This document shows, piece by piece, positions 1-34,258 of a stretch of DNA of 34,258 bases. A program made the translations under genes and the position numbers. The first letter of the stretch is position 1. Each line of letters begins with the position of its first letter. Below the pieces are notes generated by a model. The model was not told the DNA's origin. It worked only from the letters and a program-made list of their open reading frames with translations, and ran no database searches. The DNA is from a virus, in IMG/VR virus record IMGVR_UViG_3300045988_139348, positions 1-34,258 of that record. One strand, written 5' to 3'.

Positions 1-55
1 TAAGTAAAAAGGTAAGTAAAAAGGTAAGTAAAAAGGTAAGTAAAAAGGTAAGTAA
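1..55 (+). repeat. 12-nt tandem repeat GTAAGTAAAAAG (about 4.5 copies here), coding (KKVS)n; same repeat as 34192-34258
   Basis: Direct reading: taagtaaaaag + 3x gtaagtaaaaag + gtaagtaa. The period of 12 keeps the ORF in frame. Confidence 0.95.
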
Positions 56-2044: not shown

Positions 2045-2713
2045 ATGGGAAAATCATTTAATAAGGAAAAACTTCTCAATTTATTTGTTGGTACAGATGA
2101 TCTGAAACTAGGATATAAAAAACCTTATACAAAAGACGGATATGTTTACGCTACCAATGGACGCATATTGTTAAGAATTAAGGATGAAATTCTTAGTAGG
2201 GAATATGAACCAATTAATGGAGCAAATATAACAATACCAAAAGAAAATTGTAATTATCTGATTACCTACAAAGATATTGAGAAAGCTCTTGCAAGCGTTC
2301 CGAAAGATGAGGAAGTTATCGAAATCGAAGAAGATACAGACTGTCCGGAGTGTTACGGAAGCGGTGTAGTCGATTGGGAATATACCGATAGAAACGGCGA
2401 ATTTTACGAATATGAATATGATTGCCCTATTTGTAATGGAACAGGGTATGTTGATAGAGCCCAGAAAAAGACTGGAAAGATGATACCTTGGAGGGATTCA
2501 TCTATAAAATTCAATAAAGAATGTATAAGGACATATGAAGTTCAAATCTTATTTGAAGCAATGGAAATAATTGGAACTCATGATATACATCTTGTTGCAC
2601 AAGACAATAAAATAAGCGTTTTTAAAATTGATGAAAATATACAGATTATCATATGTAATTATATACAAGTAGCTGATTACGTTATGCCCCAAATGGAAGG
2701 AGGTAAAAGATGA
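2045..2713 (+). CDS. Hypothetical protein with two DnaJ-type CxxCxGxG zinc-finger motifs
   Basis: CPECYGSG and CPICNGTG lie 27 residues apart. AGGAG lies 8 nt upstream of the ATG. Confidence 0.7.
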   Translation: MGKSFNKEKLLNLFVGTDDLKLGYKKPYTKDGYVYATNGRILLRIKDEILSREYEPINGANITIPKENCNYLITYKDIEKALASVPKDEEVIEIEEDTDCPECYGSGVVDWEYTDRNGEFYEYEYDCPICNGTGYVDRAQKKTGKMIPWRDSSIKFNKECIRTYEVQILFEAMEIIGTHDIHLVAQDNKISVFKIDENIQIIICNYIQVADYVMPQMEGGKR

Positions 2714-3877: not shown

Positions 3878-4357
3878 ATGAATATTAGTTTTGAAAGATC
3901 AAAAAATACAACAATTGAATGGTACACGCCCAAATATATAATAGAGGCATTAGGGGATGGTTTCGACTTAGACCCGTGCGCTCCATGTAATAATTGGTAC
4001 ACTGCAAAAAAATCATATACAAAAGAAGATAACGGGTTGTTGAAAGAATGGTTTGGACGTGTATTTCTTAATCCCCCTTACACTAATCCTATATTAAAAG
4101 AATTTGTAACACGTCTTGCCGATCATGGTAACGGGATAGCTTTATTATATGCAAGAGTAGATAATAAGATGTTTCATGAGCAAATATTTAACAGAGCAAC
4201 ATCTATAAAGTTTTTATGTGGTAGAATCAAATTTATTCGTCAAGATGGGTCACTTGGTAATTCTCCGGGATCTGGTTCTGTATTGGTTGCATACGGAAAA
4301 GATTGTGATAACATATTGAAAAATTGTTCCTTAAAAGGAAAGTACATAAAATTATAA
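3878..4357 (+). CDS. dam: Phage-type DNA N6-adenine methyltransferase
   Basis: EWYTPKYIIEALGDGFDLDPCA is followed by the catalytic NPPY in VFLNPPYTN. This is typical of the small phage Dam family. Confidence 0.85.
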   Translation: MNISFERSKNTTIEWYTPKYIIEALGDGFDLDPCAPCNNWYTAKKSYTKEDNGLLKEWFGRVFLNPPYTNPILKEFVTRLADHGNGIALLYARVDNKMFHEQIFNRATSIKFLCGRIKFIRQDGSLGNSPGSGSVLVAYGKDCDNILKNCSLKGKYIKL

Positions 4358-4852: not shown

Positions 4853-5137
4853 ATGGGAACGAAAATTTTAAAATGCAATATTACTTTTGCAAATATCCCG
4901 GAAAGTAAATTGAAACATTTTACAAGGAGAGACGGGAGAGAAGATACAGGGTTAAATCTTTCTATCGTTAGAATGAGAAATAAAGATAAATTCGGTAATA
5001 CACATACAATCTATGTTTCACAAACAAAAGAAGAATGGGAAAGGAAAGAACCGAAAATATTTATAGGGAGTGGCAAAGTTTTAGATTTTAAAGAATACTG
5101 TGCACCAAATAATAATGATGATGATGATATACCATAA
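4853..5137 (+). CDS. Hypothetical protein with an acidic C-terminal tail (NNNDDDDIP)
   Basis: 94-codon ORF. The acidic tail is reminiscent of SSB-type tails, but no OB-fold motif was recognised. Confidence 0.5.
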   Translation: MGTKILKCNITFANIPESKLKHFTRRDGREDTGLNLSIVRMRNKDKFGNTHTIYVSQTKEEWERKEPKIFIGSGKVLDFKEYCAPNNNDDDDIP

Positions 5138-5148
5138 AATATACTATT

Positions 5149-5571
5149 ATGGAAATAAACAATTTAGATAAAATTTTATGTTCTGCAAAATGTTCATACG
5201 GGAATATCAAAGGTAGACATTGGTTAGTATATGGAGAGAAATTCATAACCTTACATAAAACTTTCGATAAAATAGCTGATGTATTAAATGAATTAGCAGA
5301 TAAATGCGCTGAAAGAATCGTACAATATAATGAAATACCCTCTCATACATTCGAACAATTCTTGGAAAATTCAATTATAGATCAAGACCCTATAATAAAA
5401 GATTGGGAATCAATGTGTTCAGATACATCAAAAGAATTAAAAAATATTTATGATTATATCAATAAATGTTTTGAATTAAACAGTTTTGACGAAACAACGA
5501 ATAATATGCTTGCTACTTATACGGAAAAAATGGAATTTTACCGTATGGAAATGGATAGGATGTTAAAATGA
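5149..5571 (+). CDS. dps: Dps-like ferritin-superfamily protein (DNA protection during starvation family)
   Basis: GRHWLVYGEKFITLHKTFDKIADVLNELADKCAERIVQYNEIP matches the Dps signature HW.v.G..F..lH......e..D..AER...lg..P, including putative ferroxidase His/Asp/Glu positions. Confidence 0.75.
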   Translation: MEINNLDKILCSAKCSYGNIKGRHWLVYGEKFITLHKTFDKIADVLNELADKCAERIVQYNEIPSHTFEQFLENSIIDQDPIIKDWESMCSDTSKELKNIYDYINKCFELNSFDETTNNMLATYTEKMEFYRMEMDRMLK

Positions 5572-6148: not shown

Positions 6149-6655
6149 TTAAAATCGTATGAAATTGTATGAAATACCTATCCCTATAAACGGACTGAAA
6201 TTTTTACCATAAATATTATACCCACATCCGGCCTGAATACCAATACCAAAAAGTTTATCTCTCTCAAATTTCTCTACATATTCAGTCCGGACAATATTAC
6301 GATATACTGTTTTCGGATAAACTTCTATTCTATTCATCTTAACGTTATATCCTTCTGCATCAATGAAATATAAGCTATCCTTAAATGTATAATTGTATAT
6401 GGGTATATTTACAGGAATATATATCGTGTCCCTATGATTAACAGTGTCATGTATCATAGGGATATATATCGTGTCATAATGCGTAAATTCTTTCGTATTT
6501 TCAACTTTATCGGTGTATGTGGCACTATCTATCACGTAAGTAATTATCGTGTCATTTTGGGGCTTATTTTGGCTTTTAATTCGATTATTACTTACCGTAT
6601 ATCCAAAGATAAACCCTATACAGAAAAATGCAACTATTACCGGCAACGTTTTCAT
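6149..6655 (-). CDS. Membrane-anchored lysis-cassette protein (spanin-like / outer-membrane-disrupting candidate)
   Basis: It has an N-terminal hydrophobic anchor (LPVIVAFFCIGFIFGY). The C-terminus GIGISYNFIRF ends in an aromatic residue like OM beta-barrel signals. It lies immediately downstream of holin and endolysin with a 4-nt overlap. Confidence 0.5.
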   Translation of the reverse strand: MKTLPVIVAFFCIGFIFGYTVSNNRIKSQNKPQNDTIITYVIDSATYTDKVENTKEFTHYDTIYIPMIHDTVNHRDTIYIPVNIPIYNYTFKDSLYFIDAEGYNVKMNRIEVYPKTVYRNIVRTEYVEKFERDKLFGIGIQAGCGYNIYGKNFSPFIGIGISYNFIRF

Positions 6656-9337: not shown

Positions 9338-9846
9338 ATTACTATAATTTTATAGTTTATTCCATATAATAATAGAGATCTTATAACCTTAAGGAAATAA
9401 GAATAATCCTCCGTGTTATTTTGAAGTTCCGGAGGAATAATTATATTGACTACTTTAGATGTAGTGTGATTAGGCATATAAAACGCACTGGCAGAAGTCT
9501 GGCTTAATGAAGGCATGAATACCTGTGAACCGTCTGACTGACTTTGTGAATAAAAGAATTTACCGCCTTCATCATCCCCATATTGGATAACTATATTAGG
9601 ATATTTATCCCCGAAAATATCTTCTATGACTTTTTTTACTGCATAATTCCCATATCCACATCCGGCTATTTTGTAATATTCCACCCTCTTTGAATTAAAA
9701 TGGGACAATAAAATTTTTATAGGATAGAACATACATGATAGAAGAATATATAAATAATTCAATTTACATTCTGAATCTACCAAATAATTAGCCCTGAATC
9801 TTTGGTAAATAAATTTAGATATGTCGAAATCACGAAACCGCTTCAT
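9334..9846 (-). CDS. Hypothetical baseplate / fibre-associated protein
   Basis: 170-codon ORF translationally coupled on both sides within the baseplate block. Confidence 0.5.
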   Translation of the reverse strand: MKRFRDFDISKFIYQRFRANYLVDSECKLNYLYILLSCMFYPIKILLSHFNSKRVEYYKIAGCGYGNYAVKKVIEDIFGDKYPNIVIQYGDDEGGKFFYSQSQSDGSQVFMPSLSQTSASAFYMPNHTTSKVVNIIIPPELQNNTEDYSYFLKVIRSLLLYGINYKIIVI

Positions 9847-12383: not shown

Positions 12384-12965
12384 TTAATGAGTTATTTTTT
12401 CATCTTGATAATCCGTTTCATCAAAATCCTTCGCTGTACCCGTTATTTTGGGGGAAGGCATATCACTCGTTCCTTGCGGGACAATATGTGTATGATTGTT
12501 GAATGTAGATATAATATCATTTACCGTACTTACAAGCTCGTTAAGTTTTGAAGTAAGTTGTTCTATATAGATCAAAGGGGAATCCCCACCATTAAGAACG
12601 ATTTTATCATTGGTAATTGAAACGGTAGAATTACCTATTGTAATGTCCGCCTTATCCAATTGGGTAAAAAGGATAGGGAAAGCAAGTGACGGATCATTCT
12701 GAACAAATCCTATTATTACAAGTGAGCCTATTGTAGGGGTAACGATAGTAGAGGTCTCAATACCTTGAACACCTGTTAACGGTATGTCTCTTATCTCACT
12801 ATCCTCTAATGTGGATAAATCGAATGTTTTTTCCTCTATATTTACTGATATAACCTCTCCATACATGAGGGATATAGGCCTCATTTCGGAAATAGCTATA
12901 GAAAGACTATTCCCTATTTCTTGCATAGCTGTTTCGAATTTCAGTCCCATAATATTACCATTCAA
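12384..12965 (-). CDS. Baseplate central spike protein (gpV / Mu gp45-like)
   Basis: The pattern YGEVISV...IRDIPL...PTIGSLVIIGFVQNDPSLAFPI is typical of the OB-fold spike N-domain. It lies after the hub gene. Confidence 0.55.
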   Translation of the reverse strand: MNGNIMGLKFETAMQEIGNSLSIAISEMRPISLMYGEVISVNIEEKTFDLSTLEDSEIRDIPLTGVQGIETSTIVTPTIGSLVIIGFVQNDPSLAFPILFTQLDKADITIGNSTVSITNDKIVLNGGDSPLIYIEQLTSKLNELVSTVNDIISTFNNHTHIVPQGTSDMPSPKITGTAKDFDETDYQDEKITH

Positions 12966-14055
12966 ACCTGTTATCCGTAACCGTTAAAACTCTTCTGTAG
13001 CCATTTGCCCCTAAACTTATTCTTATTCCAATAACATAAAAATTATTGTTCAGTTCAGGGAGCAAATTATCTGTATATTCAATATAATCGAACATTTTAA
13101 TATCCGGATAAAGCAATGTAGTTATAGTTCCGGAATTTGTAGTTGACCTTAATCCATTCCAAGCATTTATGGCTATTTCTTTAAGACCTTCTTCCGTCTG
13201 GATAGGTTTATATCCTAAATTTATCCTTCTCGATGATGCCTCTTTATCTCCTGCAGTAGCTTTAACTCGTTTGCCATTTATATAGGCATTAGCCTCGACA
13301 TAATAATCTTCAAACATCCCGTTTACAGGTTTTATGTCCCTATCTATTACATTAACTTTAGTGTCCAATTTTATGGTTTCTTTATCCGGGAACGTACTTC
13401 CTGTACCCATATAAAGATTCCCTTCTTTATCTATCCCGGTAAATATTTTGAACATATCCATTAATCTTTGGCATACTTGAAACGGAGATGCACCCTTCCA
13501 TACTTTCATGTTAAATTCAGAAGTAGCCGTTTCAGATGAAACGGCTAAGGGTTTATAAGACGATGTGAGACCTTGACTGTCACGATATTTTGAAAATGCC
13601 TCATTCCCTATTTTACAGCAATATTCTAATCCTTCTGTTAATGGAGCTTTTTGAACCCATTCTTTATTTACCTTTCCGAATCTCAATATAAAGGCCCTAT
13701 CTTCCAATATCAAAGTAGTAGGGAATCCGGAGATTATCTGTTTTATGAACCCGTCAAATATCAATAGAGGTTTTCCGAATTCTACCTGAGCTATATCTTT
13801 ATATTTTGCTTTTACTTGTATTTGCGCACCGACTTTTATATTATATTTGGCCAAGTCTACTATTGTCATACCTGTAATTATGTTTCCGGTATTATCGAGT
13901 TTGGCTACTGTATGTATAGGTATCTTCAATTCTCCCCTTTCTGCAAGATGATCTCTTGTATTGTTGGATTCAAAAGATACGAAGTTGAGTATTTTCCTAC
14001 CTTCTACCCATACCTCATTTTCGCATATAAAATAATTTAATCGGCAGTTAGGCAT
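12955..14055 (-). CDS. Baseplate hub / late-control gpD-like tail protein
   Basis: 366-codon ORF. Size and position, two genes after the tape measure and before the spike, match P2 gpD / Mu gp44. Confidence 0.5.
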   Translation of the reverse strand: MPNCRLNYFICENEVWVEGRKILNFVSFESNNTRDHLAERGELKIPIHTVAKLDNTGNIITGMTIVDLAKYNIKVGAQIQVKAKYKDIAQVEFGKPLLIFDGFIKQIISGFPTTLILEDRAFILRFGKVNKEWVQKAPLTEGLEYCCKIGNEAFSKYRDSQGLTSSYKPLAVSSETATSEFNMKVWKGASPFQVCQRLMDMFKIFTGIDKEGNLYMGTGSTFPDKETIKLDTKVNVIDRDIKPVNGMFEDYYVEANAYINGKRVKATAGDKEASSRRINLGYKPIQTEEGLKEIAINAWNGLRSTTNSGTITTLLYPDIKMFDYIEYTDNLLPELNNNFYVIGIRISLGANGYRRVLTVTDNRFEW

Positions 14056-28178: not shown

Positions 28179-28239
28179 GGGTGTCATTGCACCTTACGCC
28201 AGCAATAAGATAGCGGTGCAGAATTCTAATCAAAAAGTT

Positions 28240-28262: not shown

Positions 28263-28475
28263 TTTTATTGAATACTCCAGAAAGGACAGCTACGTTAATA
28301 AGTTGGAGGTCTCAAAAGTTAACAGATGTTGCGCAATAAATATAGTGCATACTGATACGCAATAAGTTACGGAAACCTTAAGTTAAAATATAGTTAAATG
28401 CGTAATAATATTAGTATATAACAGATGAATAAAGTACATTTGTATATACAAAAAAAGGAACAAAACTAAAACGTA

Positions 28476-28549
28476 CAATATAGATATAGAGCGGGAAAAC
28501 AGCTCTATTTGTGGCGCTAAAAAGCAATATAGATATAGAGCGGGAAAAC
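28476..28549 (+). repeat. Two perfect 25-nt direct repeats CAATATAGATATAGAGCGGGAAAAC (28476-28500 and 28525-28549), each followed by a related AGCT..TATTTG(T/G)GGCG tail
   Basis: Direct reading. Spacing is 49 nt start to start. They lie about 130-200 nt upstream of ardA. Confidence 0.9.
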
Positions 28550-28675
28550 TTTAGCTACACTTTTATTTGGGGCGGATATAAAAGGCTCTTTAACGACTCT
28601 ACGGAATTAAATAACTACATTTTATACACTTTAAATGAGATAAAAAAATAACTAAAAATTAGGAGGAAACAAAAC

Positions 28676-29206
28676 ATGAAAAATTTTAATTTAAATGATG
28701 CGAAAGTGTACGTAAGCACTTATAAAAAGTATAACGAAGGGTCTTTAAATGGCGGATGGCTTAACCTTTCTGATTATTCCGATAAAGAGGGATTTTATGA
28801 AGCCTGCCGGGAGCTTCACAAGGATGAAGAAGATGCAGAGTATATATTTCAGGACTGGGAGAACGTGCCGGCAAACCTAATCGGCGAAAGCTGGATTTCC
28901 GAGAACTTCTTCACCTTGCGGGATGCGGTGGAAAAGTTGGGCGAAACCGAACAGGAAGCCTTTTTCGTGTGGTGCAACTACAAAAGCCATGATTTGAGCG
29001 AGGAAGATGCGGAAGACCTTGTACGGGACTTTCAGGACGAATATCAGGGACAATATGACGATGAAGAAGATTTTGCCTACCAAATCGTGGAAGAATGTTA
29101 CGACCTGCCGGAGTTAGCAAAGACCTATTTCGATTATGAAAAGTTTGCCCGTGATTTGTTCATGTGCGACTACTGGTTTGATGACGGGTTTGTATTTCAA
29201 AGGTAA
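28676..29206 (+). CDS. ardA: ArdA-family antirestriction protein
   Basis: AKVYVSTYKKYNEGSLNGGWLNLSDY..., a highly acidic sequence, and the C-terminal YFDYEKFARDLFMCDYWFDDGFVFQ match the ArdA family pattern. A strong AGGAGG lies 8 nt upstream of the ATG. Confidence 0.85.
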   Translation: MKNFNLNDAKVYVSTYKKYNEGSLNGGWLNLSDYSDKEGFYEACRELHKDEEDAEYIFQDWENVPANLIGESWISENFFTLRDAVEKLGETEQEAFFVWCNYKSHDLSEEDAEDLVRDFQDEYQGQYDDEEDFAYQIVEECYDLPELAKTYFDYEKFARDLFMCDYWFDDGFVFQR

Positions 29207-29210
29207 AAAT

Positions 29211-29504
29211 ATGGCTTATTTATGTGTAAATAAAAATGGTGAAGAATTGATTTGCCAGAATTTGCCAAAACGATATGGATATATAAAAAAATACATTAAC
29301 TCGTGGTATGGCAAAATAGACAATAATGGCAATAGGTATGAAGAGATATTGCAGCAAGATGAAAATTTAGACCATTGGCGAGATCAAGAATATTTAAACA
29401 TGGGCGAATATTGCATTAATTACGAAATATTGCTCCCACATGGAACAATAGAAAAAATAATAGGTAAAAAAATGAATTGGGAAAATGACCCGGTAGAAAT
29501 TTAA
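29211..29504 (+). CDS. Hypothetical protein (ATG 29211 preferred over the ORF-track start 29136, which overlaps ardA)
   Basis: MAYLCVNKNGEELICQNLPKRYGY... starts 5 nt after the ardA stop. Confidence 0.5.
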   Translation: MAYLCVNKNGEELICQNLPKRYGYIKKYINSWYGKIDNNGNRYEEILQQDENLDHWRDQEYLNMGEYCINYEILLPHGTIEKIIGKKMNWENDPVEI

Positions 29505-29516
29505 ATAATATAAACA

Positions 29517-30248
29517 ATGGAAAAGAAATTTGAACTTACAGAAGAATTTATAATCAATAATTCAGGAATTAAGCTGTACAGGATAAAAGCATTAAAAGAT
29601 TTTTCCGATGTTAAAAAGGGTGATTTTGGGGGATACGTTCAGCAAGAGCGTAATTTGTCGCAATTCGGTAATGCGTGGGTCTGCGGAAATGTGCAGGTTT
29701 ACGGCAATGCGCAGGTTTACGGTGATGCGCAGGTTTACGGCAATGCGTGGGTTTACGGTGATGCCCGAGTTTACGGAAATGCGCAGGTTTACGGAAATGC
29801 CCGAGTTTACGGAAATGCGCAGGTTTACGGAAATGCGCAGGTTTACGGCAATGCGTGGGTTTACGGTGATGCGCAGGTTTACGGAAATGCGAAAGTTTAC
29901 GACAATGCGAAAGTTTACGGAAATGCGCAGGTTTACGGCAATGCGTGGGTTTACGGTGATGCGCAGGTTTACGGAAATGCGAAAGTTTACGACAATGCGA
30001 AAGTTTACGACAATGCGAAAGTTTACGACAATGCCCGAGTTTACGGAAATGCGTGGATTTACGGTGATGCGCAGGTTTACGGAAATGCGAAAGTTTACGA
30101 CAATGCCCGAGTTTACGGAAATGCGCAGGTTTACGGAAATGCGTGGATTTGCGGCAATGCCCGAGTTTACGGAAATGCGCAGGTTTACGGAAATGCTTGG
30201 ATTTTAGGCGATGCGAAAGTTTTTGAAAAATGCGTAAATATTATTTAA
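29517..30248 (+). CDS. Hexapeptide-repeat protein: 50-aa N-domain followed by 31 uninterrupted G-[ND]-A-x-V-Y repeats (predicted beta-helix)
   Basis: N-terminal region KLYRIKALKDFSDVKKGDFGGYVQQERNLSQFGNAWV, then GNAQVYGDAQVYGNAWVYGDARVY... The V at position i and A at i+4 fit the [LIV]-x-x-x-[STAV]-x left-handed beta-helix pattern. Confidence 0.8.
   Translation: MEKKFELTEEFIINNSGIKLYRIKALKDFSDVKKGDFGGYVQQERNLSQFGNAWVCGNVQVYGNAQVYGDAQVYGNAWVYGDARVYGNAQVYGNARVYGNAQVYGNAQVYGNAWVYGDAQVYGNAKVYDNAKVYGNAQVYGNAWVYGDAQVYGNAKVYDNAKVYDNAKVYDNARVYGNAWIYGDAQVYGNAKVYDNARVYGNAQVYGNAWICGNARVYGNAQVYGNAWILGDAKVFEKCVNII
29667..30224 (+). repeat. 18-nt tandem repeat array (31 units, consensus GGAAATGCGCAGGTTTAC) with a 90-nt higher-order repeat
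   Basis: Units differ almost only at codon 2 (aat/gat) and codon 4 (cag/tgg/cga/aaa). A 90-nt (5-unit) block starting near 29823 recurs near 29913. Confidence 0.95.
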
Positions 30249-30263
30249 TTAAAAAATGACATT

Positions 30264-31151
30264 ATGAAAAAGAATGAGTCGAAATACACAGAAACAAAAC
30301 AAATAGGTAAAAATACATTCGTATATGTAGAAATAGGGTTAAGATATATAGAAAATAACGGCTATTCTTATTTTTATGCAACTGGAGAAAAATACGACCT
30401 TAATGGAGGTATAAAAAATATTTTGGAGTCAGGATGCATTCACGACGAAATCTTAAAATATTTTCCAGAATTTAAGATATTTGTTAATATACATGGAAAT
30501 AACTCTTATGGAATGCCGACGTACATGATTTCAAATCTAAAATTTTATATAGACAATAACAAAATAGATGCAATTTGTAGAACTCTGCACATATCTAAAG
30601 GAATGGCCAAAGAAATAATTTGTTGGGGGGAGGATATAGATTATATAAAATATTTCTTAGAAGAAAATAATATCATTTTTTCACTGCGGCGAAAGGCCAA
30701 AAAAGCTATTAAATTATTAGAGAAATTAACGGGTGATGAGTTCGAAAATCCTGACATATTGGGCATTTACGATTACATCCCATTGTGCAAAGATGTAAAA
30801 TACAGGATAAAAAAAATGCATGAAAAAGGCTATTTTAGTAGGGATAACGTTGCAAAAAGACGAAATGAAAAAATAAGAGAAATCCAACTGCAGAGGTTAG
30901 AGAGCGAAAAAAAGAAATTAGAAAGCGAAAAAAAAGAAATAGACAACGAAATACAGGTGCTGCAATATCTATTTGACAGAGGGATAAAAATTGATTGTCA
31001 CGCATATTTGCGCTCGGTAAATATTTTGGCGATAAACTTATTAAAAAATGGAGACGGCGTAATGACTGAAAAGGAATATAAGGATTTTATAGATAGTGTA
31101 GATTATTCAAAATTGCCGAAGAACATAAGTTTTGAATTTAATAAAATATAG
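30264..31151 (+). CDS. Hypothetical protein with a central coiled-coil (RLESEKKKLESEKKEIDNEIQ)
   Basis: 295-codon ORF. No family recognised. Confidence 0.6.
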   Translation: MKKNESKYTETKQIGKNTFVYVEIGLRYIENNGYSYFYATGEKYDLNGGIKNILESGCIHDEILKYFPEFKIFVNIHGNNSYGMPTYMISNLKFYIDNNKIDAICRTLHISKGMAKEIICWGEDIDYIKYFLEENNIIFSLRRKAKKAIKLLEKLTGDEFENPDILGIYDYIPLCKDVKYRIKKMHEKGYFSRDNVAKRRNEKIREIQLQRLESEKKKLESEKKEIDNEIQVLQYLFDRGIKIDCHAYLRSVNILAINLLKNGDGVMTEKEYKDFIDSVDYSKLPKNISFEFNKI

Positions 31152-33903: not shown

Positions 33904-34258
33904 ATGAACTATATACAATTAATAAACCTTTTTTGGCAAACACGACGTGAAGTGCGAATAACCAGTGTGGAGGCCGACCTCTACTTCTTCCTTTTGCAAG
34001 AAAGCAATAATCGGAACTGGGAGAATCCCTTTGAGTGTCCCAACGGGTTAATCTGCGTCACTATCGGCGTCACAGAAAAGACTATGATTGAAGCACGCAA
34101 CAGATTACAGCAAAAAGGTCTAATAAAATTTGATCCCGGTAAACGTAAAACGAAGTCACCTGTTTACACAATTTTAAACTGTAATATTTACAGTAAAAAG
34201 GTAAGTAAAAAGGTAAGTAAAAAGGTAAGTAAAAAGGTAAGTAAAAAGGTAAGTAAAA
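33904..34258 (+). CDS. Replication initiator / DnaD-like protein, 5' part (winged-helix N-domain); the ORF runs off the window end and resumes at base 1-3
   Basis: MNYIQLINLFWQTRREVRITSVEADLYFFLLQESNNRNWENPFECPNGLICVTIGVTEKTMIEARNRLQQKGLIKFDPGKRK... has no stop before the window end. It ends in the (KKVS)n repeat. Confidence 0.7.
   Translation, partial: MNYIQLINLFWQTRREVRITSVEADLYFFLLQESNNRNWENPFECPNGLICVTIGVTEKTMIEARNRLQQKGLIKFDPGKRKTKSPVYTILNCNIYSKKVSKKVSKKVSKKVSKKVSK
34192..34258 (+). repeat. 12-nt tandem repeat GTAAGTAAAAAG (about 5.5 copies), identical to 1-55
   Basis: The longest exact suffix/prefix overlap between the window end and window start is 45 nt. Overlaps of 9, 21 and 33 nt also match because of the 12-nt period. 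Confidence 0.95.

What the first reader, a model, noticed from the sequence alone, without database searches (positions are those of the whole stretch)
29667..30224. 31 uninterrupted hexapeptide repeats (G-N/D-A-x-V-Y) encoded by near-identical 18-nt units with a 90-nt higher-order repeat
Seen directly: 558 nt of perfectly phased 18-nt units, with variation confined almost entirely to codon 4 (Q/W/R/K) and codon 2 (N/D). A five-unit (90-nt) block recurs, and the array is about 50 % G+C in an AT-rich genome. This level of nucleotide identity between units implies recent expansion or ongoing unequal recombination, so copy number is probably variable between isolates and hard to assemble. The V/A spacing fits a left-handed beta-helix of about 10 turns in which only the outward-facing x position is diversified. 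The gene sits two genes downstream of ardA at the head of the early arm, where phage anti-defence genes commonly cluster. A beta-helical decoy or DNA-mimic role, by analogy with pentapeptide-repeat DNA mimics, is pure speculation. The N-domain motif GGYVQQERNLSQFGNAWV looks like a widespread uncharacterised family.
Basis: partly seen in the sequence, partly recalled or inferred. Interest (0 to 1): 0.65.

Follow-up and report, generated by a model that had tools for sequence, protein, structure and literature searches.

The report
Length-variable YdcK-like beta-solenoid phage gene
A dispensable gene near the start of a gut phage's plus-strand (probably early) gene block encodes a rod-like protein built from 31 six-residue repeats; it belongs to a very large family of unknown function, and its repeat number changes quickly between closely related phages.

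Summary
ORF 29517-30248 (243 aa) contains 31 in-phase 18-nt units (29667-30224). Identity at offset 18 is 0.785, against at most 0.32 in 1000 shuffles. "Near-identical" overstates it: mean pairwise unit identity is 78.5%. The 90-nt "higher-order repeat" is one exact tandem duplication.

The protein is a phage member of the YdcK-like cap-plus-hexapeptide beta-solenoid family (Pfam PF18836, PHROG 7964/5070, PDB 2F9C/2PIG). The family is huge and nobody has characterised it.

Relatives with an almost identical N-cap carry 5, 9, 24, 31 or 32 repeats. One relative lacks the gene precisely. Another keeps an ardA::repeat fusion as a deletion scar. Against its closest ortholog the array has lost all positional identity while the flanks stay 90-95% identical. 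So the predictions of copy-number instability and turnover are supported.

The DNA-mimic idea is not supported: pI is 8.2, and an ortholog has pI 4.1. An enzyme role is unlikely: there is no histidine, no insertion loops, and the length varies.

My best reading is a non-enzymatic rod that binds or scaffolds something during host interference. That function is inferred, not shown. It is a new member of a known kind, of moderate interest.

The parts
29517..30248 (+). Complete CDS (243 aa plus stop) of the YdcK-like cap-plus-beta-solenoid protein
   Evidence: ORF list. Pfam PF18836 1.9e-40 in 15 stretches. PHROG 7964 1e-122 and PHROG 5070 2e-101. PDB 2F9C E = 6.4e-22 over residues 17-225.
29517..29666 (+). 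N-terminal cap domain (residues 1-50), homologous to the N-terminus of YdcK
   Evidence: Aligns to YdcK residues 23-57. PHROG 20149 matches residues 1-53. Residues 1-56 alone retrieve 5,961 representatives at E<=1e-3. The MSA-based AF2 model gives pLDDT about 80 with three beta-strands. Between the window and L081 there are 15 nt differences but only 3 aa differences, which indicates purifying selection.
29667..30224 (+). Array of 31 in-phase 18-nt units encoding hexapeptides G/D-N/D-A-x-V/I-Y
   Evidence: AF2 shows an 'EE----' pattern every 6 residues, with pLDDT 83-97 over residues 71-210 in the single-sequence model.
29829..30008 (+). Two identical tandem 90-nt blocks: units 9-13 (29829-29918) and units 14-18 (29919-30008). 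This is the most recent duplication in the array.
   Evidence: The five-unit blocks are 100% identical, and the longest exact direct repeat is 97 nt at offset 90 from 29823.
30225..30248 (+). Short non-repeat C-terminal tail EKCVNII plus stop. There is no C-terminal domain, unlike about 72% of family members.
   Evidence: In the family census, 142/197 members have more than 40 aa after the last repeat and 26/197 have 15 aa or fewer. Close relatives also lack a C-terminal domain.
28676..29206 (+). ardA (antirestriction protein), two genes upstream. Context only.
   Evidence: PF07275 E = 6.7e-33. pI 4.05.
28694..28711 (+). ardA codons 7-12 (AATGATGCGAAAGTGTAC, N-D-A-K-V-Y), which resemble a repeat unit. 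This is the left junction of the deletion seen in relative L088.
   Evidence: Nucleotide comparison of the L088 mini-ORF with the window's ardA 5' end and the array 3' end.
29211..29504 (+). Small ORF (97 aa from the MAYLCV start) between ardA and the solenoid gene. It is conserved in L085. Context only.
   Evidence: No Pfam or PADLOC hit.
28319..28346 (+). Only plus-strand sigma-70-like promoter candidate upstream of the ardA-to-solenoid gene block (weak evidence)
   Evidence: Matches 10 of 12 consensus positions, but the number of sites in the region is no higher than in shuffles. No terminator-like site lies between ardA and the solenoid gene.

Best explanation
The feature is a protein-coding tandem array. 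The gene encodes a 50-residue YdcK-type N-terminal cap followed by 31 hexapeptides. By homology to the YdcK crystal structure, the hexapeptides wind three per turn into a beta-solenoid of about 10 turns (inferred). G1, A3 and V5 form the core and corners, and N/D2, x4 and Y6 face the solvent (inferred).

It is an accessory gene in the same-strand block that starts with ardA and runs into the recT/yqaJ recombination genes. Placement suggests this block is early, but timing was not measured (inferred). The gene is dispensable, because a close relative lacks it precisely.

At the DNA level the array gains and loses whole 18-nt units by slippage or unequal recombination (inferred from the comparisons). 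As a result, copy number and unit sequence turn over much faster than the flanks (shown by comparison).

At the protein level it most likely acts without catalysis. I read it as a rigid rod of variable length that works by stoichiometric binding or scaffolding inside the infected cell, most probably in host interference or anti-defence (inferred). It is not a DNA mimic, an acyltransferase or a virion part.

Confidence in identity, fold family and array instability is about 0.9. Confidence in the proposed mode of action is about 0.3.
For: Family and fold: PF18836 1.9e-40. YdcK 2F9C/2PIG E = 6.4e-22, including the cap. The AF2 model is a regular solenoid. YdcK is the only significant Foldseek hit.

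Constraint at protein level: Gly codons vary synonymously (GGA 14, GGC 6, GGT 6). The core positions are conserved. In the cap, 12 of 15 differences to L081 are synonymous.

Instability: 5, 9, 24, 31 or 32 units behind nearly identical caps. Positional unit identity to L081 is 0.74, about the same as random between-array pairs (0.73) and below within-array identity (0.785 and 0.79), while the flanks are 0.90-0.955 identical. Position 6 is Y in 27/31 units here and in 1/32 in L081. Codons are linked within unit types: R is always GCC-CGA and D-N always GAC-AAT. There is an exact 97-nt duplication. Relatives show a deletion scar and an empty site, and an HMP assembly has a gap here.

Non-enzymatic: the protein has no His and no insertions in 31 repeats, and its length is variable.

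Context: the gene lies on the same strand as the ardA, recT and yqaJ genes and opposite the structural module. In relatives it sits next to DNA methyltransferases. In S. thermophilus phage Sfi19 the homolog is the first sizeable gene after cro, about 1.3 kb downstream of AcrIIA6 and just upstream of Gam/Sak4. Annotated neighbours across the family are mostly recombination, replication and methyltransferase genes.
Against: There is no experimental or literature evidence for any function. Linkage to anti-restriction genes is weak outside this lineage: 21 of 69 loci have a methyltransferase or ArdA within 6 kb, and 6 of 150 immediate neighbours are methyltransferases. Charge and exposed residues are not conserved even among orthologs, and the variable residues show no face-specific pattern. 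That argues against a specific conserved binding surface. Most family members carry a C-terminal domain that this lineage lacks, so the solenoid may normally be only a spacer. Expression timing was not measured. TM-score to YdcK is only 0.31, and the handedness of the model was not checked.
Confidence: 0.5

Rival explanations
1. The gene is decaying or near-neutral accessory cargo. This lineage has lost the family's usual C-terminal domain, and the array drifts in length because selection on it is relaxed. The protein would then have little or no function in this phage.
For: 142 of 197 family members have a C-terminal domain, and this lineage has none. The gene is absent in L085, reduced to 5-9 units in L089 and L087, and deleted to a scar at this site in L088. 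Charge and surface are unconstrained.
Against: All five same-cap copies keep an intact, in-frame ORF. The cap is under purifying selection, with 12 synonymous against 3 non-synonymous differences. Core positions G1, A3 and V5 are conserved, with synonymous variation in the Gly codons. 26 of 197 family members also end straight after the repeats. The window and L081 keep 31 and 32 units despite complete sequence turnover.
Confidence: 0.17
2. The protein is a self-assembling filament or scaffold, bactofilin-like. The C-terminal end of the solenoid has almost no cap, so rods could associate end to end or side by side through the Tyr ladders and build an intracellular structure during infection.
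For: The Pfam Bactofilin hit scores 37.6 bits, above the 27.9 cut-off. NCBI names homologs 'polymer-forming cytoskeletal protein'. Y occupies position 6 in 27 of 31 units, on all three faces. The C-terminal tail is only 7 residues.
Against: The bactofilin hit is much weaker than the YdcK hit (133.7 bits) and probably reflects the shared solenoid periodicity. The cap is YdcK-type. The Tyr ladder is replaced by F/C/S in the ortholog. No polymerisation data exist. To my knowledge the bactofilin helix is right-handed and YdcK is classified with left-handed helices.
Confidence: 0.13
3. The protein is a DNA-mimic decoy that blocks restriction or other DNA-binding defence proteins, analogous to ArdA/Ocr or to the pentapeptide-repeat proteins Qnr and MfpA.
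For: It lies two genes from ardA. The rod would have roughly DNA-like width (inferred). The ortholog in L081 is strongly acidic, with pI 4.07 and 35 D+E against 15 K+R. The family median net charge is slightly negative, at -0.22 per hexapeptide.
Against: The window protein has pI 8.19, and the net charge of its repeats is +1. Same-cap relatives range from pI 4.07 to 8.19, so charge is not conserved. The period is 6 rather than 5. There is no similarity to known mimics. Acidic residues show no face-specific ladder.
Confidence: 0.06
4. The protein is a hexapeptide-repeat (LbH) acyl- or acetyltransferase that modifies a host or phage molecule, as some database names suggest ('putative acyltransferase', 'trimeric LpxA-like').
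For: The Hexapep PF00132 hit scores 39.7 bits, above the cut-off of 27. There are weak matches to LpxD, LpxA, GlmU and NeuD models. Several phage records carry such names.
Against: The protein has no histidine. The 31 repeats are uninterrupted, with no loop insertions. Repeat number ranges from 5 to 32 behind the same cap, which does not fit a fixed active site. All enzyme-model scores are far below their cut-offs.
Confidence: 0.03
5. The array works at the DNA level, as iterons or a replication origin, a recombination hotspot, or a mis-called CRISPR-like array, and the reading frame is incidental.
For: The 18-bp units lie in a gene block that includes recombination genes. Iteron-bearing origins inside genes exist, lambda O being an example (my own knowledge). 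One public record annotated a homologous array as CRISPR spacers.
Against: Conservation is at the amino-acid level. The Gly codon's third base varies freely, while homologs in many phyla keep the peptide pattern with different DNA. There is a solved protein homolog. The units are contiguous with no spacers, so it is not CRISPR.
Confidence: 0.03

Closest known systems
YdcK (Salmonella/E. coli; PDB 2F9C, 2PIG; Pfam PF18836 B_solenoid_ydck; NCBIfam NF040481)
   Same: It shares the N-terminal cap: query residues 17-50 align with YdcK 23-57, including the G-G-[YW]-V and L-S-Q-x-G motifs. It shares the solenoid repeat type. YdcK is the only significant structural hit for the MSA-based model. Both are of unknown function.
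   Different: YdcK is a 326-aa chromosomal protein with irregular, diverged repeats. The phage protein has 31 near-perfect repeats, scores 109 bits against a 350-bit cut-off, lacks the C-terminal third of YdcK, sits on a mobile element and varies in copy number.
PHROG 7964 / 5070 / 20149 phage proteins of unknown function, e.g. S. thermophilus phage Sfi19 orf229
   Same: Cap plus hexapeptide array (1e-122, 2e-101, 1e-21). In Sfi19 the homolog sits just after cro and upstream of the recombination genes, a placement like the window's.
   Different: Most members, Sfi19-type proteins included, carry a C-terminal domain of about 65 aa with a G-C-F-x-G motif that has no Pfam model. The window lineage ends 7 residues after the last repeat.
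Left-handed beta-helix acyltransferases (LpxA, LpxD, GlmU, and the prophage-encoded NeuO)
   Same: Hexapeptide periodicity and the presumed triangular solenoid. NeuO of prophage CUS-3 is also an LbH gene carrying a copy-number-variable tandem repeat (PMC3046976).
   Different: There is no His, no active-site loops, and the repeats are perfect. NeuO's variable repeat is a 7-nt phase-variation tract at the 5' end (my own knowledge), not the solenoid itself.
Pentapeptide-repeat DNA mimics (Qnr, MfpA) and ArdA/Ocr
   Same: Repeat-built rod or elongated shape. The gene is a genomic neighbour of ardA.
   Different: The period is 6, not 5. The protein is slightly basic at pI 8.19, whereas ArdA is at 4.05. 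There is no sequence relationship.
Bactofilins (PF04519)
   Same: Solenoid with about 18 residues per turn, a Pfam hit above cut-off, and shared automatic annotation.
   Different: The hit is much weaker than the YdcK hit. The cap is YdcK-type. Bactofilin helices are right-handed with disordered tails (my own knowledge). Polymerisation is untested.

Membership tests
YdcK-like beta-solenoid proteins (PF18836 / PDB 2F9C) | YdcK-type solenoid repeats detected above the curated threshold | tested here: met
   PF18836 scores 133.7 bits against a cut-off of 30, in 15 stretches.
YdcK-like beta-solenoid proteins (PF18836 / PDB 2F9C) | N-terminal cap homologous to that of YdcK | tested here: met
   phmmer aligns query 17-225 to 2F9C 23-218, E = 6.4e-22. 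The cap alone finds 5,961 representatives.
YdcK-like beta-solenoid proteins (PF18836 / PDB 2F9C) | Full-length equivalence to chromosomal YdcK (NCBIfam NF040481 equivalog cut-off) | tested here: not met
   109.2 bits against a cut-off of 350. It is YdcK-like, not a YdcK ortholog.
YdcK-like beta-solenoid proteins (PF18836 / PDB 2F9C) | Single-stranded left-handed beta-helix geometry, three hexapeptides per turn | tested here: inconclusive
AF2 gives a regular solenoid with pLDDT above 90.
LbH acyltransferases (PF00132 Hexapep; LpxA/LpxD/GlmU type) | Hexapeptide repeats | tested here: met
   PF00132 scores 39.7 bits against a cut-off of 27.
LbH acyltransferases (PF00132 Hexapep; LpxA/LpxD/GlmU type) | Catalytic general-base histidine and loop insertions forming the active site | tested here: not met
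   The protein has no His, and 31 repeats run without any insertion. Enzyme family models score 17-37 bits against cut-offs of 150-666.
LbH acyltransferases (PF00132 Hexapep; LpxA/LpxD/GlmU type) | Trimer with inter-subunit active sites | not testable with these tools
   No multimer prediction or experiment was available.
Bactofilins (PF04519) | DUF583 domain match above the gathering threshold | tested here: met
   37.6 bits against 27.9 in 3 stretches. The YdcK model scores far higher, so this is probably a cross-hit.
Bactofilins (PF04519) | Right-handed helix and nucleotide-independent polymerisation | not testable with these tools
   Handedness was not measurable, and there is no biochemical test.
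Pentapeptide-repeat / acidic DNA mimics (Qnr, MfpA, ArdA, Ocr) | Five-residue period, or a strongly acidic DNA-like surface | tested here: not met
   The period is 6. pI is 8.19 with 22 K+R against 20 D+E, while ArdA has pI 4.05.
CRISPR array / iteron array (DNA-level repeats) | Repeats separated by unique spacers, or conservation at the DNA rather than the peptide level | tested here: not met
   The units are contiguous. Third-base variation in the Gly codons, together with conservation of the peptide pattern across phyla, points to protein-level constraint.
Known anti-phage defence proteins (PADLOC) | Match to any defence-system model | tested here: not met
   No hit at E<=0.01 for this protein or its three unannotated neighbours.

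The most novel reading that the evidence does not exclude
The YdcK-like cap-plus-solenoid proteins could be a large, unrecognised class of phage host-interference or anti-defence factors. Their working surface and length would be re-drawn continually by unit-wise recombination of the coding array. That would be a built-in, VNTR-driven arms-race mechanism, functionally comparable to diversity-generating systems but needing no dedicated machinery.
Probability: 0.18. Interest if true: 0.7.

Novelty: new member of a known kind. Interest (0 to 1): 0.4.

Why it matters
The family is very large. The cap alone finds 5,961 clusters at 50% identity, and 347 IMG/VR stretches matched from six short peptide patterns. 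It occurs in phages and prophages of many phyla, including cultured phages of dairy streptococci, Bacteroides fragilis and Liberibacter. In the window lineage and in Sfi19 it sits near the start of the plus-strand block that runs into the recombination genes. No function is known.

This window and its relatives form a compact natural experiment. The same cap appears with 5 to 32 repeats, the gene occupies two alternative insertion sites, and there is one empty site and one deletion scar. That could guide experiments on whether rod length or surface matters.

In practice, the array breaks short-read assemblies and produces recurrent annotation errors: 'glycerol kinase', 'CRISPR spacer', and overlapping alternative-frame ORFs.

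Tried and rejected
- Foldseek of the single-sequence AF2 model against PDB and BFVD gave no significant hit. This is probably because the 3Di string is repetitive, and I did not treat it as evidence against the fold.
- megablast of the 7-kb region against INPHARED phages found nothing.
- The exact protein is not on record in the contig index.
- TerL has no relative in 185,579 representative genomes, so the host stays unknown.
- The polyvalent-protein paper (PMC5512222), which I recalled as a possible source of the Pfam family, does not mention YdcK or hexapeptide solenoids. That lead was dropped.
- Seven literature searches on YdcK, PF18836, phage solenoids and Sfi19 orf229 found no functional study.
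- Domain fusions in ten large cap-containing proteins showed only further solenoid modules and one HTH domain.
- The C-terminal domains of other family members have no Pfam family.
- The neighbour census gave mostly unannotated small genes.
- The promoter and terminator scan was no better than shuffles.
- I rejected the DNA-mimic, acyltransferase, CRISPR/iteron and virion-protein readings, for the reasons given under the rival explanations.
Full report
**Observation.** The ORF at 29517-30248 (+) encodes 243 aa. After 50 non-repetitive residues come 31 uninterrupted hexapeptides, encoded by in-phase 18-nt units from 29667 to 30224, followed by a 7-residue tail, EKCVNII. Tandem Repeats Finder reports period 18, 29.5 copies, 80% matches, no indels and score 565. 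Self-identity at offset 18 is 0.785. Offsets that are not multiples of 18 give 0.10-0.33, and 1000 shuffles give at most 0.32. Array G+C is 0.489, against 0.347 for the window; this follows from the repeated codons GGN-AAT-GCG-CAG-GTT-TAC. First, the units are similar rather than near-identical: mean pairwise identity is 78.5%, and there are 16 distinct unit sequences. Second, the 90-nt block is one exact tandem duplication (units 9-13 equal units 14-18, with 97 nt identical at offset 90), plus a weaker copy at offset 198. It is not an array-wide higher-order repeat.

**What it is.** The protein matches Pfam PF18836, the YdcK beta-solenoid repeat, at 1.9e-40 in 15 stretches. Weaker hits above threshold go to Hexapep and Bactofilin. 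It matches PHROG 7964 (1e-122) and PHROG 5070 (2e-101), and the cap alone matches PHROG 20149; all three are of unknown function. It aligns to the solved structure of Salmonella YdcK (2F9C/2PIG) with E = 6.4e-22 over residues 17-225, and the alignment includes the N-terminal cap. It scores only 109 bits against the 350-bit cut-off of the NCBIfam YdcK equivalog. It is therefore YdcK-like, not a YdcK ortholog.

AlphaFold2 without an alignment gives a strictly periodic solenoid, two strand residues in every six, with pLDDT 83-97 over residues 71-210. With a 67-sequence alignment the cap becomes confident at about 80, and YdcK is then the only significant Foldseek hit in the PDB (2pig_A, E = 9.9e-4, prob 0.98). 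The TM-score is only 0.31, however. I could not access coordinates, so left-handedness and the 18 residues per turn rest on family homology. YdcK is, to my knowledge, classified with the single-stranded left-handed beta-helices.

**Family size and spread.** The 56-residue cap alone finds 5,961 representatives at 50% identity (E<=1e-3) and 481 at E<=1e-10. The cap often occurs several times, or internally, in proteins of up to 2,114 aa. In IMG/VR, 347 matched stretches encode relatives. Representative genomes from Clostridia, Bartonella, Pasteurellaceae, Saccharibacteria, Bacteroidota, Actinomycetota and others also carry it. Eighty-one cultured-phage records carry it, under the labels hypothetical, putative acyltransferase, polymer-forming cytoskeletal protein, glycerol kinase, or, in one Vibrio phage, CRISPR spacers. 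Seven literature searches found no functional study. In a census of 197 members the median was 30 hexapeptides (range 12-68). 142 members have more than 40 aa after the last repeat, and 26, like the window protein, end within 15 aa. Several classes of that C-terminal domain exist, most sharing a G-C-F-x-G motif, and none has a Pfam model.

**Close relatives show that the array is unstable.** Anchoring on the flanking genes and on the cap DNA recovered relatives of this particular phage. Genes with a nearly identical cap (47-50 of 50 residues; 90-97% nt identity) carry the following numbers of hexapeptides:
- 31 in the window
- 32 in L081
- 24 in L088
- 9 in L087
- 5 in L089

Between the window and L081 the cap is 90% identical in DNA and the downstream gene 95.5%. 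The unit-by-unit identity of the arrays, however, is 0.74. That is about the same as random pairs of units taken between the two arrays (0.73), and lower than the identity within either array (0.785 and 0.79). Position 6 is Tyr in 27 of 31 units in the window and in 1 of 32 in L081, which uses Phe, Cys or Ser. This is concerted evolution, meaning turnover of the array by duplication and loss of units.

Codons are linked within unit types, which shows that units spread as blocks: every R unit is GCC-CGA, every K unit GCG-AAA, and every D-N unit GAC-AAT. The free third base of the Gly codon (GGA 14, GGC 6, GGT 6), and the 12 synonymous against 3 non-synonymous differences in the cap, show that constraint acts on the protein.

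L085 has ardA, the small ORF and the downstream 295-aa gene, with only a 21-nt gap where the solenoid gene would be. In L088 the site holds a 38-codon ORF, MKNFDLNDAKVYGNAEVC...GNAKVFWK. In it, the first codons of ardA, which happen to encode N-D-A-K-V-Y (window 28694-28711), are joined in frame to the last units of the array. This is the scar of a deletion between ardA and a repeat unit, and it removed ardA, the small ORF and most of the solenoid gene. In one HMP sample, one contig ends at window position 29525 and another starts at 30154, so the assembly broke across the gene.

**Context.** The window appears to be a complete, circularly permuted genome. The structural module, from terminase to tail, is on the minus strand (5672-27791). 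A plus-strand block, probably early, starts near 28200 and wraps around the window ends. The gene order is ardA (28676-29206), a 97-aa ORF, the solenoid gene, a 295-aa ORF, a 115-aa ORF, recT and yqaJ. There is one weak promoter candidate upstream of ardA and no terminator before the solenoid gene, and the promoter scan was no better than chance. Co-transcription is therefore inferred, not shown.

In L087-L089 the same-cap gene lies instead beside a C5-cytosine methyltransferase or between two methyltransferases. In L081 ardA is replaced by other small genes. In S. thermophilus phage Sfi19 the homolog, orf229, is the first sizeable gene after cro. It lies about 1.3 kb downstream of AcrIIA6 and directly upstream of the Gam, Sak4, helicase and SSB genes.

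Across the family the link to anti-restriction genes is weak. 21 of 69 viral loci have a methyltransferase or ArdA homolog within 6 kb. Among 150 de-duplicated immediate neighbours, most have no Pfam hit. Those that do are recombination proteins (RecT, ERF, PD-(D/E)XK, YqaJ), replication proteins, and six methyltransferases. No PADLOC model matches.

**How it most likely works.** By the usual geometry of hexapeptide helices (established knowledge, not measured here), G1, A3 and V5 form the core and corners, and N/D2, x4 and Y6 face outward. All three outward positions vary within or between arrays. The variable residue x shows no pattern by helix face. The protein has no histidine and no loop insertions, and its length varies six-fold behind the same cap. 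That argues against an LbH acyltransferase. Its pI is 8.19, against 4.05 for ArdA, and same-cap orthologs range from 4.07 to 8.19. That argues against a DNA mimic.

The gene lies on the strand opposite the structural module, in the same block as the recombination genes, so a virion role is unlikely. The remaining reading, which I adopt at about 0.3 confidence, is a non-catalytic rigid rod that acts by binding or scaffolding in the infected cell, most probably in host interference. The main rivals are near-neutral decaying cargo (0.17) and a self-assembling filament (0.13).

**Novelty.** The family is already catalogued by Pfam, PHROGs and a structural-genomics entry in the PDB, so this is a new member of a known kind. 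What this work adds is comparative evidence: the coding array behaves as a fast-evolving VNTR, the gene is dispensable, it occupies two alternative sites, and a deletion scar is mediated by a chance repeat-like sequence in ardA. I score interest at 0.4. The result is not surprising in kind, but the family is very large, is carried by phages of many phyla and has never been studied.

Noticed in passing
window 1-55 and 34192-34258: A 12-nt tandem repeat (TAAGTAAAAAGG) at both window ends encodes (KKVS)n inside an ORF that runs across the window junction. The homologous 276- and 284-aa proteins of L088 and L089 have 3 and 5 KKVS copies. The window therefore looks like a circularly permuted complete genome, cut inside a second coding VNTR.
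   Followed up: partly
L088, reverse-complement coordinates 6248-6364; window 28694-28711: A 38-codon ORF fuses the start of ardA (codons encoding N-D-A-K-V-Y) in frame to the last solenoid units. It is the scar of a deletion between ardA and a repeat unit that removed ardA, the small ORF and most of the solenoid gene.
   Followed up: yes
L085 (reverse-complement coordinates 9730-9752), compared with window 29505-30263: A related phage has ardA, the 97-aa ORF and the 295-aa ORF, but only a 21-nt gap where the solenoid gene would be. This is an empty site, so the gene is dispensable.
   Followed up: yes
L081 2084-3170, compared with window 28491-29371: The ardA position is a variable slot. The closest complete relative carries unrelated small ORFs there instead of ardA.
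   Followed up: partly
L087, L088, L089 (reverse-complement coordinates 2571-2906, 12619-13239, 5116-5400): A solenoid gene with the same cap sits at a second genomic site, after a C5-cytosine methyltransferase or between two methyltransferases, with 9, 24 and 5 repeats. The window has the C5 methyltransferase (1026-1997) but no solenoid gene after it.
   Followed up: partly
L082 and L083 (IMG/VR 7000000171 contigs _000170 and _000221): In one HMP sample the phage assembly is broken exactly across this gene. One contig ends at window position 29525 and the other begins at 30154.
   Followed up: partly
window 29608-30207 (+); NC_000871.1 27279-27668: The repeat keeps a second reading frame open (199 aa, MRRFTE-type), which is an artefact ORF. 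The same artefact is annotated as orf129 inside orf229 of phage Sfi19. Other public records label homologs 'glycerol kinase' or mark the array as CRISPR spacers (Vibrio phage 1.139.A).
   Followed up: partly
L001-L080; P0121-P0267: Nine of 73 viral loci carry extra solenoid paralogs next to the first. The cap also occurs 2-4 times, or internally, in proteins of up to 2,114 aa made almost entirely of solenoid modules.
   Followed up: partly
window 30897-30951: A 21-nt repeat (2.6 copies) inside the 295-aa ORF encodes LESEKKK/LESEKKE. This ORF and the 115-aa ORF after it have no Pfam or PADLOC match but are conserved in all close relatives.
   Followed up: no
window 2045-2713, 3878-4357, 5149-5571: The plus-strand block also encodes a protein with a DnaJ-type CXXCXGXG zinc-finger match (below the Pfam cut-off), a Dam-like N6-adenine methyltransferase and a ferritin-like protein.
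   Followed up: no
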